From positions 1-4,056 of IMG/VR virus record IMGVR_UViG_2529293039_000008: a stretch of DNA of 4,056 nucleotides; one strand, 5' to 3'. This document shows positions 2-2,199 of this stretch, in pieces. The translations under genes were made by a program, and so were the position numbers. This stretch comes from a virus (taxonomy: Duplodnaviria > Heunggongvirae > Uroviricota > Caudoviricetes). The stretch's first letter is position 1. Each line of letters opens with the position of its first letter. The notes under the pieces are model-generated. The model ran no database searches. It had not been told where the DNA came from and was given only the letters and a program-made list of their open reading frames with translations.

Positions 2-1462
2 CCGAACAACGGCTGGGAGACGGCAACAGAGCTTGTGGAGGACACGCGGGCCATTGCCCGTTATGGTCGTAACGTCACGAAGATGGACGCCTTTGGCTGT
101 ACCAGCCGGGGGCAGGCACACCGCGCCGGGCTGTGGCTGATTAAAACGGAGCTGCTGGAAACGCAGACCGTGGACTTCAGCGTGGGCGCAGAAGGGCTTC
201 GCCATGTACCGGGCGATGTCATTGAAATCTGTGATGATGACTATGCGGGTATCAGCACCGGCGGGCGCGTGCTGGCGGTGAACAGCCAGACGCGGACACT
301 GACGCTCGACCGTGAAATCACGCTGCCATCCTCCGGCACCACGCTGATAAGCCTGGTTGACGGAAGTGGCAATCCGGTGAGCGTGGAGGTCCAGTCCGTC
401 ACCGACGGCGTGAAGGTGAAAGTGAGCCGTGTTCCTGACGGCGTTGCTGAATACAGCGTATGGGGGCTGAAGCTGCCGACGTTGCGCCAGCGCCTGTTCC
501 GCTGCGTGAGTGTCCGTGAGAACGACGACGGCACGTACGCTGTCACAGCCGTGCAGCATGTCCCGGAAAAAGAGGCCATCGTGGATAACGGGGCGCACTT
601 TGACGGCGACCAGAGCGGCACGGTGAATGGTGTCACGCCGCCAGCGGTGCAGCACCTGACTGCCGAAGTCACCGCAGACAGCGGGGAGTATCAGGTGCTG
701 GCGCGATGGGACACACCGAAGGTGGTGAAGGGCGTGAGCTTCCTGCTCCGTCTGACCGTAACAGCGGACGACGGCAGTGAGCGGCTGGTCAGCACGGCCC
801 GGACGACGGAAACCACATACCGCTTCACGCAACTGGCGCTGGGGCGTTACACGCTGACAGTCCGGGCGGTAAATGCGTGGGGGCAGCAGGGCGATCCGGC
901 ATCGGTATCGTTCCGGATTGCGGCACCGGCAGCGCCTGTCACTATTGAACTGATACCAGGGTATTTTCAGATAACAGCGGTCCCGAAACTGGCTGTATAT
1001 GACCCGACGGTGCAGTTTGAGTTCTGGTTCTCGGAAAAGCGGATTATCGATATCAGGCAGGTTGAAACCAGCGCGCGTTATCTTGGTACGGCGCTGTACT
1101 GGATAGCCGCCAGTAGCAATATTAAGCCGGGTTATGATTATTACTTTTATATCCGCAGCGTGAACACCGTAGGTAAATCGGCATTTGTGGAGGCCGTCGG
1201 TCGGGCGAGCGATGATGCGGAAGGTTATCTGAATTTTTATAAAGGGTTGATCAATAAAACGCATCTCGGCAAGGAACTGCTGGAAAACTTTGAGCTGACG
1301 GAGGATAACGCCAGCAAACTGGAGGAGTTTTCGAAAGAGTGGAAGGACGCTAACGATAAGTGGAATGCCATGTGGGCGTCAAAATTGAGCAGACCAAGAC
1401 GGCAAACATTATGTCGCGGGTATTGGCCTTCAGCATGGAGGACGCGGAGGAAGGCAAGCTGA
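2..1462 (+). CDS. J: Tail-tip host-specificity protein J, internal portion; 5' partial (open to window start). Authentic J reading ends near 1378, after which this frame runs into nonsense and stops at 1462.
   Basis: Frame 2 is open from nt 2 with no stop before 1462. The translation (...[62 protein letters not shown]...[22 protein letters not shown]...[18 protein letters not shown]) matches the central fibronectin-III-like region of lambda gpJ as I recall it. The last 28 codons ([27 protein letters not shown]) are Arg-rich out-of-frame sequence. Confidence 0.85.
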
Positions 1463-2199
1463 GCCAGTTTCTGGTTGCCGCTAACCGTATCGCGTTTATT
1501 GACCCGGCAAACGGGAATGAAACGCCGATGTTTGTGGCGCAGGGCAACCAGATATTCATGAATGACGTGTTCCTGAAACGCCTGGCGGCCCCCACCATTA
1601 TCAGCGGTGGCAATCCACCGGCATTTTCCCTGACACCGGACGGAAAGCTGACTGCTAAAAATGCGGATATCAGTGGCAGTGTGAATGCGAACTCCGGGAC
1701 GCTCAACAACGTCACGGTAAATGAAAACTGTACGATTAAGGGCATGCTGGAGGCGACTCAGGTCAGAGGTGACTTCGTTAAAGCTGTATCCAAATCATTT
1801 CCGAAACAGGCTGGTACGTGGGGTAACACGGAAACACCAAACGGGACGGTTACAGTCACCATCAGCGATGATCATAACTTTGACCGTCAAATCATTATTC
1901 CGCCCATTATCTTTAACGGAATAGCGTATAGCTATCCGGGAAGTGGTAATAACCCGGGAGGTACAAGATACACGGGGTATGGTTTTGAAGTTCGCAAAAA
2001 CGGTGTATTAATCGCATCCAGAGAAACTAAAGGGGCCATTCCCGGTAGCTACAGTGCGGTTATTGATATGCCGAGTGGCAGGGGAAGCGTCACTCTGGAG
2101 TTTAAGGTTTTCCATAAAGGCAATCAGTGGGCAGGTAATATCACCGACTGTACGGTGATTGTGACCAAAAAAGCCGCTTCCGGCATCAGAATTCGTTGA
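1360..2199 (+). CDS. J: Tail-tip host-specificity protein J, C-terminal portion including the receptor-binding domain; continuation of the upstream J ORF in the -1 frame, so probably a frameshifted gene or pseudogene.
   Basis: Frame 1 from ~1378 reads VKIEQTK...[51 protein letters not shown]...[15 protein letters not shown], collinear with the lambda gpJ C-terminal region. There is no credible start codon or RBS of its own (the 1360 GTG is internal to the upstream ORF). Stop TGA at 2197-2199 is followed directly by a terminator hairpin. Confidence 0.8.

What the first reader, a model, noticed from the sequence alone, without database searches (positions are those of the whole stretch)
1370..1465. 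Three clustered single-base indels break the J reading frame
The J-like translation is carried by frame 2 up to ...KWNAMWA (about 1378), by frame 1 for VKIEQTK (1378-1398), by frame 0 for [11 protein letters not shown] (1398-1430), and by frame 1 again from [10 protein letters not shown] to the stop at 2199. This fits loss of one G at ~1378 (GCGGTC to GCGTC), loss of one G at ~1398 (AAGGAC to AAGAC) and gain of one T at ~1430 (CCTCAGC to CCTTCAGC), relative to an intact J reading ...[27 protein letters not shown].... Net effect is a -1 shift: the frame-2 ORF ends in 28 nonsense codons at 1462 and the receptor-binding C-terminus would be untranslated. All three changes are length changes in 1-2 nt homopolymers within 53 bp, which points to either homopolymer-type sequencing or assembly errors or a decaying, cryptic prophage gene.
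Basis: partly seen in the sequence, partly recalled or inferred. Interest (0 to 1): 0.6.

Follow-up and report, generated by a model that had tools for sequence, protein, structure and literature searches.

The report
Likely sequencing errors in draft J gene
The three single-base frame breaks in this prophage tail-tip gene (J) are really in the deposited sequence, but they look like local base-calling errors in a tiny contig of a draft E. coli assembly, not gene decay, so the finding is ordinary.

Summary
Relative to every intact lambdoid J gene compared, the window lacks one G of a GGGG run (1371-1376), lacks one A of an AAA run (1396-1397) and has an extra T (1429-1430). The net shift is -1 and the frame stops at 1462. 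Restoring the three bases gives an uninterrupted 732-aa J C-terminal portion.

The window is the whole 4,056-bp contig AIFC01000045.1 of the draft genome of E. coli DEC2D. It starts inside J and ends inside a multicopy ISEc13 element.

One relative (L004) has no substitutions against window 1-1499, yet lacks all three indels. None of 2,977 matching places in 5,426 complete E. coli genomes shares them.

A second cluster of four private 1-nt indels sits in stf (3625-3688). All seven indels are homopolymer-length changes in runs of 1-4 nt. All 13 runs of 5 nt or more are intact. Two clusters this tight have P about 2e-6 under uniform placement.

Best reading, about 0.8: low-quality or low-coverage patches in a draft assembly, so J is probably intact. 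Real, very recent pseudogenisation remains possible at about 0.15. Only reads or resequencing can settle it.

The one solid disruption in the contig is the ISEc13 insertion in stf. Interest is low.

The parts
1..2199 (+). 3' two-thirds of a lambdoid J gene (tip attachment protein / central tail fibre; corresponds to residues 406-1137 of a 1137-aa J), broken in the deposited sequence
   Evidence: 92.6-98.6% nucleotide identity to annotated J genes. The repaired translation hits Pfam Phage-tail_3, Ig_J, Ig_J_second, Phage_Tail_Tip and Ig_GpJ_C. It starts at offset 405 of the L004 J protein.
1371..1376 (+). Indel 1: one base missing. The window has GGG where the closest alleles have GGGG; lambda/434-type alleles read GGGCT.
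1394..1398 (+). Indel 2: one A missing. The window has CCAAG where all relatives have CCAAAG.
1429..1430 (+). Indel 3: one extra T. The window has CCTTC where all relatives have CCTC.
35..1462 (+). Upstream J fragment as annotated in the record (EHU36870.1, 475 aa), ending in 27 out-of-frame codons
1435..2199 (+). Downstream J fragment as annotated in the record (EHU36869.1, 254 aa), carrying the tail-tip fibre and the C-terminal receptor-binding domain
1585..1601 (+). Two private nonsynonymous substitutions, A>G at 1585 (Thr>Ala) and C>T at 1601 (Thr>Ile). A third is at 2190, T>A (Ser>Arg).
   Evidence: Absent from all 12 relatives. Absent from all 1,717 places and 2,637 places in complete E. 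coli genomes.
2218..2241 (+). Terminator-like hairpin after J
   Evidence: A terminator is annotated at the same place in phage 434.
2269..2868 (+). lom (Ail/Lom outer-membrane beta-barrel protein), intact
   Evidence: Pfam Ail_Lom, E = 5e-121, full length. The exact protein is carried by contigs in 229 blocks of the collection.
2933..3696 (+). N-terminal 254 codons of the side tail fibre gene stf, cut off by an insertion sequence
   Evidence: Pfam phage_tail_N. Alignment to stf of L001, L002 and L004 ends at 3696.
3625..3688 (+). Second cluster of four private 1-nt indels in stf: +A at 3625, -A after 3661 (AAA to AA), -C after 3669 (CCCC to CCC), -C after 3687 (CCC to CC)
   Evidence: The best of 5,223 places in complete genomes differs by exactly these four gaps, at 96.4% identity.
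3697..4056 (-). End of an ISEc13 element (IS4 family). The terminal repeat CTGTCTCTTGATCAGATCT starts at 3697. The transposase C-terminus lies on the minus strand (3708-4056) and runs off the contig.
   Evidence: 98.4-99.2% identity to annotated ISEc13 copies with no indels. Pfam Dimer_Tnp_Tn5.

Best explanation
The three frame breaks are most likely base-calling or consensus errors in a locally low-quality or low-coverage patch of a draft assembly. The J gene of this EPEC prophage is probably intact.

Shown: the window is the complete 4,056-bp contig AIFC01000045.1 of E. coli DEC2D. It is a small contig that begins inside J, which recurs in several prophages per genome, and ends inside the multicopy ISEc13.

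Inferred: in such a contig some stretches are probably covered by one or a few read ends. There, homopolymer lengths are miscounted (GGGG to GGG, AAA to AA, T to TT). The same process produced a second patch of four miscounts in stf. The annotation pipeline then split J into two 'proteins', EHU36870.1 and EHU36869.1.

Also inferred: biologically, the locus is an ordinary lambda-type J-lom-stf tail module, and its only well-supported lesion is the ISEc13 insertion in stf.
For: (1) Source. The organism is E. coli DEC2D.

(2) Window 1-1499 has no substitutions against L004 and differs only by the three indels. After repair it is an exact substring of L004.

(3) The indels are singletons. In 2,026 records (2,977 places) of complete E. 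coli genomes the best match is 97.0%, which is all three gaps plus one mismatch. All 12 fetched relatives carry the intact state. The 75-mer spanning the indels has no exact match in viral, genome or metagenome contig collections.

(4) A second cluster of four private 1-nt indels lies in a different gene, stf, at 3625-3688. It is also unshared by any of 5,223 places.

(5) Clustering. Under uniform placement, 7 events fall into two clusters of 64 nt or less with P about 2e-6.

(6) All 7 indels are pure run-length changes. The 5 deletions are all in runs of 3-4 nt. Only 15.7% of bases lie in runs of 3 or more, so 0.157^5 is about 1e-4. All 13 runs of 5-6 nt are intact. That pattern is the opposite of what replication slippage or uniform long-homopolymer platform error would give, and it fits local loss of read quality.

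(7) The private changes are 7 indels against 3 substitutions. From memory, E. coli mutation-accumulation data show roughly ten substitutions per indel.

(8) The repaired J is a continuous 732 aa with all expected J domains and only 4 aa differences from an intact J.

(9) J genes that are broken in finished genomes (L006, L013) or spread-out cases (L014) have breaks hundreds of nt apart, not three within 57 nt.
Against: No reads, quality values or coverage data are available here, so an error is inferred and not demonstrated.

The sequencing platform could not be verified. The genome announcement is not held. My recollection that the DEC drafts were pyrosequencing-era assemblies is from memory only.

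The prophage does carry a genuine-looking disruption, ISEc13 in stf. Broken J genes do exist in the related strain E2348/69. Decay is therefore not implausible a priori.

No sibling DEC2 assembly could be retrieved to show the same allele without the indels.
Confidence: 0.8

Rival explanations
1. The indels are real. J of this DEC2D prophage is a very recent pseudogene in a decaying prophage, truncated after residue about 863 and lacking the receptor-binding C-terminus, so the prophage cannot form infectious particles.
For: The same module has an IS insertion in stf. J genes split into several ORFs occur in finished genomes of related strains, such as the second E2348/69 prophage L006 and L013. 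Three private substitutions downstream of the break are all nonsynonymous, which is compatible with relaxed selection.
Against: Three independent frameshifts within 57 nt sit in 1.5 kb that has no substitutions against a relative. A second four-indel cluster lies within 64 nt of another gene. No other genome shares any of the seven indels. Long homopolymers, the usual slippage targets, are untouched. After the first frameshift there is no selective reason for further hits to concentrate next to it.
Confidence: 0.15
2. The two patches are real 'showers' of frameshift mutations made in single events of localised error-prone DNA synthesis, for example break repair by a frameshift-prone polymerase. 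One of them would be associated with the IS insertion.
For: The events cluster tightly in two patches, and one patch ends 9 nt from the ISEc13 junction. The changes are predominantly -1 in short runs.
Against: No known IS4-family transposition step resynthesises 70 nt of flanking DNA (established knowledge of cut-and-paste transposition with 9-bp gap repair). The J patch is not next to any junction. The patches contain both +1 and -1 changes in A, C, G and T runs. The IS end itself carries no indels. A draft-assembly artefact explains the same pattern more simply.
Confidence: 0.03
3. The frame changes are functional recoding, that is programmed ribosomal frameshifts or a deliberately split J.
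For: None beyond the presence of overlapping ORFs.
Against: Every relative encodes the region in one continuous frame with the same nucleotide sequence apart from the three bases. No homologue conserves the out-of-frame tail. There is no Rfam family match. Three shifts of mixed sign within 57 nt match no known recoding signal.
Confidence: 0.01

Closest known systems
Lambda gpJ (tip attachment protein J / central tail fibre) of lambdoid phages and prophages, e.g. phage 434 OL657226.1 CPT_434_21 and E. coli WP_000515360.1
   Same: Same gene order, J-lom-stf. Nucleotide identity is 92.6-98.6%. The repaired product has the same Pfam domain series, and the break falls in the Phage_Tail_Tip domain. 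Window 1-1499 is identical to the J of NCTC assembly GCA_900448265.1 apart from the three indels.
   Different: The deposited sequence is split into two ORFs by -1, -1 and +1 changes. It has three private amino-acid changes near the C-terminus: T>A, T>I and S>R.
Homopolymer-length consensus errors in low-coverage parts of draft assemblies (a known artefact class; from general knowledge)
   Same: All seven changes are run-length miscounts, mostly undercounts. They are confined to two short patches of a 4-kb repeat-bounded contig, and they are unsupported by any other genome.
   Different: Long homopolymers of 5-6 nt, which are the classic victims, are all correct. This points to local read-end or low-coverage quality loss and not to a general platform bias. 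It cannot be confirmed without the reads.
Genuinely fragmented J genes in finished genomes (second prophage of E2348/69, L006; L013)
   Same: J is split into several ORFs inside an otherwise recognisable tail module.
   Different: Their breaks lie hundreds of nt apart in alleles that also carry many substitutions (93-94% identity). The window's three breaks lie within 57 nt in a stretch with no substitutions against L004.
ISEc13 (IS4 family, Tn5/IS50-like transposase)
   Same: Window 3697-4056 is 98.4-99.2% identical to annotated ISEc13 copies, with the terminal repeat and the transposase C-terminus.
   Different: This insertion site in stf was not found in any searched collection. Only one end is on the contig, so no target duplication can be read.

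Membership tests
Lambda-type tip attachment protein J | Domain series Phage-tail_3 / Ig_J / Ig_J_second / Phage_Tail_Tip / Ig_GpJ_C | tested here: met
   All five hit above the gathering score on the repaired 732-aa translation. The same families are recorded for the 1137-aa J proteins of the relatives.
Lambda-type tip attachment protein J | Position in the tail module: tail assembly protein I, then J, then lom, then stf | tested here: met
   lom and stf follow J in the window. Relatives show the same order. The region upstream of J is not on the contig.
Lambda-type tip attachment protein J | One continuous reading frame through to the receptor-binding C-terminus | tested here: not met
   As deposited, the frame ends at 1462. 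It becomes continuous only after restoring G and A and removing T.
Bona fide pseudogene of a decaying prophage | The disabling mutation is reproducible in independent sequences of the lineage | tested here: not met
   None of 2,977 places in 5,426 complete genomes shares the indels. There are no exact matches in three contig collections. Sibling DEC2 drafts could not be retrieved.
Bona fide pseudogene of a decaying prophage | Lesions scattered and accompanied by substitutions at a normal indel-to-substitution ratio | tested here: not met
   There are 7 private indels in two patches against 3 private substitutions. There are no substitutions in 1-1499 against L004.
Sequencing / assembly artefact | Low coverage or low base quality at the affected positions in the underlying reads | not testable with these tools
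   No reads or quality values are accessible. The genome announcement is not held.
Sequencing / assembly artefact | Comes from a draft, unfinished assembly; errors are clustered, private and of run-length type | tested here: met
   It is a whole 4,056-bp WGS contig of DEC2D. Clustering has P about 2e-6 and all 7 changes are run-length changes. All are private.
Programmed ribosomal frameshift / recoding | Frame change conserved among homologues, with a slippery site and conserved out-of-frame product | tested here: not met
   Homologues have a continuous frame. The tail peptide is not conserved. No Rfam family matches.
ISEc13 (IS4 family) | Near-identity to annotated ISEc13 copies, including the terminal inverted repeat and the Tn5-type transposase C-terminus | tested here: met

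The most novel reading that the evidence does not exclude
The seven indels are real and arose as two localised 'showers' of frameshift mutations, meaning clustered error-prone resynthesis. One would lie inside J and one next to a fresh ISEc13 insertion in stf of an EPEC prophage. That would be a natural example of patchy indel mutagenesis inactivating phage tail genes.
Probability: 0.03. Interest if true: 0.4.

Novelty: not a real feature. Interest (0 to 1): 0.07.

Why it matters
It matters mainly as housekeeping. GenBank and UniRef hold two 'proteins' (EHU36870.1, EHU36869.1) that are probably two halves of one intact J. Anyone counting prophage pseudogenes or inferring defective prophages in the DEC collection from this draft would overcount.

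If the indels were real, they would only mean one more inactivated tail gene in a prophage already hit by an IS. In neither case does the finding open a new biological question.

Tried and rejected
- I searched the 75-mer spanning the three indels and the 30-mer spanning the stf::ISEc13 junction in viral, genome and metagenome contig collections. There were no matches.
- I looked up several alternative ORF products before finding the source: 1360-2199, 2933-3769, 2-1462 and 1411-2199. None was on record. Only 1435-2199 hit.
- I searched the out-of-frame tail peptide in the 5.8-billion-protein set. The only hits were other frameshifted J scraps. Two come from raw-noisy long-read Logan contigs, with 168 gaps in 2.9 kb and 63 gaps in 1.3 kb. 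One comes from a chromosome whose J has indels spread over 3 kb. None had the same tail. They were found because the query selected for them, so they are not evidence for a hotspot.
- I tried to find clonal siblings carrying the same IS-truncated stf without the indels, using the repaired 258-aa Stf. There was no identical truncated product. The nearest partial product, P0111, sits next to a different J allele.
- I tried to read the DEC genome announcement to verify the platform. It is not held, and literature searches were uninformative.
- I considered and rejected programmed frameshifting, an RNA element (Rfam found nothing) and uniform platform error (long runs are intact).

Full report
**What the window is**

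ORF listing and similarity searches show the tail end of a lambdoid prophage tail module.
- The 3' 2.2 kb of J lies at 1-2199.
- A terminator-like hairpin lies at 2218-2241.
- lom lies at 2269-2868. It is full length, with Pfam Ail_Lom at E = 5e-121.
- The first 254 codons of the side-tail-fibre gene stf lie at 2933-3696.
- From 3697 on there is the end of an ISEc13 element. It is 98.4-99.2% identical to annotated copies, has no indels, and has a Tn5-type transposase C-terminus on the minus strand.

An exact-product look-up identified the source. The window is the entire 4,056-bp contig AIFC01000045.1 of assembly GCA_000249215.2. The organism is Escherichia coli DEC2D. In that record J is annotated as two proteins, EHU36870.1 (35-1462) and EHU36869.1 (1435-2199). 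The contig starts inside J, which occurs in several prophage copies per genome (up to 8 places per genome). It ends inside a multicopy IS (34 places in E2348/69). This is the typical shape of a small repeat-bounded contig in a draft assembly.

**Check of the observation**

Alignments to 12 related loci place three single-base indels:

| Site | Relatives | Window | Change |
|---|---|---|---|
| after 1373 | TGGGGCGTC (closest alleles) | TGGGCGTC | one base missing |
| after 1395 | ACCAAAGAC (all) | ACCAAGAC | one A missing |
| 1429/1430 | GGCCTCAGC | GGCCTTCAGC | one T extra |

At the first site, lambda/434-type alleles read TGGGCTGTC. The changes are therefore G4 to G3, A3 to A2 and T1 to T2.

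Restoring them gives a continuous 732-aa J C-terminal portion. It has four amino-acid differences from the 1137-aa J of L004 and all expected J domains. The break falls in the Phage_Tail_Tip domain, upstream of the C-terminal receptor-binding domain.

**Real mutations or artefacts?**

Several independent observations point the same way.

1. Window 1-1499 has no substitutions against L004 (GCA_900448265.1). After repair it is an exact substring of that locus.
2. The indels are singletons. Among 2,026 records (2,977 places) in 5,426 complete E. coli genomes, the best match to 1340-1470 is 97.0%, which is three gaps plus one mismatch. All 12 fetched relatives have the intact state. The 75-mer across the indels is absent from the viral, genome-representative and metagenome collections.
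3. The same contig holds a second cluster of four private single-base indels in stf: +A at 3625, -A after 3661, -C after 3669 and -C after 3687. The best of 5,223 places differs from the window by exactly those four gaps.
4. Seven events falling into two clusters of 64 nt or less has a probability of about 2e-6 under uniform placement.
5. All seven are run-length changes. All five deletions are in runs of 3-4 nt. Only 15.7% of bases are in runs of 3 or more, giving about 1e-4. All 13 runs of 5-6 nt are correct.
   - Replication slippage, and general homopolymer bias of a platform, would both hit the longest runs first.
   - Errors confined to short patches regardless of run length suggest local loss of read quality or depth.
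6. Apart from the indels, the window has only three private substitutions, at 1585, 1601 and 2190. Each is unshared by the 1,717 and 2,637 matching places searched. The private changes are thus 7 indels to 3 substitutions. From memory, E. coli mutation-accumulation studies give roughly one indel per ten substitutions.
7. The substitutions at 1585 and 1601 extend the J patch to about 230 nt holding 5 private differences. It lies next to 1,372 nt with none. That resembles the degraded tail of a read more than a mutational history. This last step is inference.

**Comparators**

Genuinely fragmented J genes exist. The second prophage of E2348/69 (L006) splits J into 655 + 238 + 348 aa. L013 splits it into 93 + 232 + 800 aa. 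Their breaks are hundreds of nt apart, and the alleles are 93-94% identical to the window, with many substitutions.

The search with the out-of-frame tail peptide retrieved only other frameshifted scraps.
- Two Logan contigs are raw-noisy long-read sequence, with 168 gaps in 2.9 kb and 63 gaps in 1.3 kb.
- One chromosome (L014) has J indels spread over 3 kb.
- These hits were selected by the query and say nothing about a hotspot.

**Most likely mechanism**

The best-supported account (confidence about 0.8) is that parts of this small contig were covered by very few reads or by read ends. Homopolymer lengths were then miscounted in the consensus, and the annotation split an intact J into two ORFs.

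I recall, but could not verify, that the DEC collection drafts published in 2012 were produced on pyrosequencing-era platforms, which would fit run-length errors. The argument does not depend on this.

The rivals are:
- a real, very recent pseudogene (about 0.15);
- real clustered frameshift 'showers' from localised error-prone synthesis (about 0.03);
- recoding (about 0.01). This one is excluded in practice, because all homologues are continuous in one frame and there is no Rfam match.

**Comparison with what is known, and novelty**

The locus is an ordinary member of the lambda J-lom-stf module. It is closest to prophages of EPEC/EHEC strains, with 97-98.6% identity over 3.7 kb. The frame breaks belong to the known class of draft-assembly consensus errors.

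The only biologically solid lesion on the contig is the ISEc13 insertion in stf. That site was not found in any collection searched. Side tail fibres are dispensable in laboratory lambda (established knowledge), so even that insertion need not inactivate the phage.

**Verdict**

The feature is most likely not real biology. Interest is about 0.07. The decisive test is a read pile-up or a PCR/Sanger check of DEC2D at 1371-1430 and 3625-3688.

Noticed in passing
window 3625-3688: A second tight cluster of four private single-base indels (+A, -A, -C, -C) lies in stf, 9-72 nt before the IS junction. None is shared by any of 5,223 matching places in complete E. coli genomes.
   Followed up: yes
window 3697-4056: stf is truncated after codon 254 by an ISEc13 element (IS4 family). 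Its terminal 19 bp, CTGTCTCTTGATCAGATCT, equal what I recall as the Tn5/IS50 inside end. This insertion site was not found in any complete E. coli genome, phage or plasmid record, or contig collection searched. Only one IS end is on the contig.
   Followed up: partly
window 1585, 1601, 2190: There are three private substitutions in the J C-terminal region, all nonsynonymous (Thr>Ala, Thr>Ile, Ser>Arg near the last residues). They are absent from all matching places in 5,426 complete genomes. They could be further errors or real receptor-binding-region variants.
   Followed up: partly
L006 2217-5931 (E. coli O127:H6 E2348/69, LT903847.1): The second lambdoid prophage of E2348/69 has J split into three ORFs (655, 238 and 348 aa). 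It also has about 300 nt of extra or divergent sequence opposite window 1238-1449. This looks like a genuine broken or variant J in a finished genome.
   Followed up: partly
L013 2517-5930 (GCA_900448385.1): J is called as three genes (93, 232 and 800 aa) in an NCTC long-read assembly. This is either another J pseudogene or assembly indels.
   Followed up: no
L014 2760-8092 (GCA_045573085.1, JBIGOP010000001.1): J is fragmented into at least 4 ORFs and stf into 2, with indels spread over 3 kb. J directly follows a lysis cassette and a porin gene, so this is a heavily rearranged or defective prophage, or a noisy assembly.
   Followed up: partly
L005 6798-7256 (CP148541.1): An IS200-type (Y1 transposase) element is inserted between lom and stf in another relative. 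The lom-stf interval and stf are recurrent IS targets in these prophages.
   Followed up: no
window 2869-3042 (minus strand): The source record calls a 57-aa gene antisense to the lom-stf intergenic region and the stf start. It has no Pfam hit and overlaps the stf start and its terminator/RBS region, so it is probably a spurious call.
   Followed up: no
P0017 (EJI6654678.1 / HFX7366530.1): Another 254-aa J fragment begins at the same Met (MEDTEEGKL...) on a 384-kb contig of a different E. coli. It may mark another J truncated or broken just upstream.
   Followed up: no
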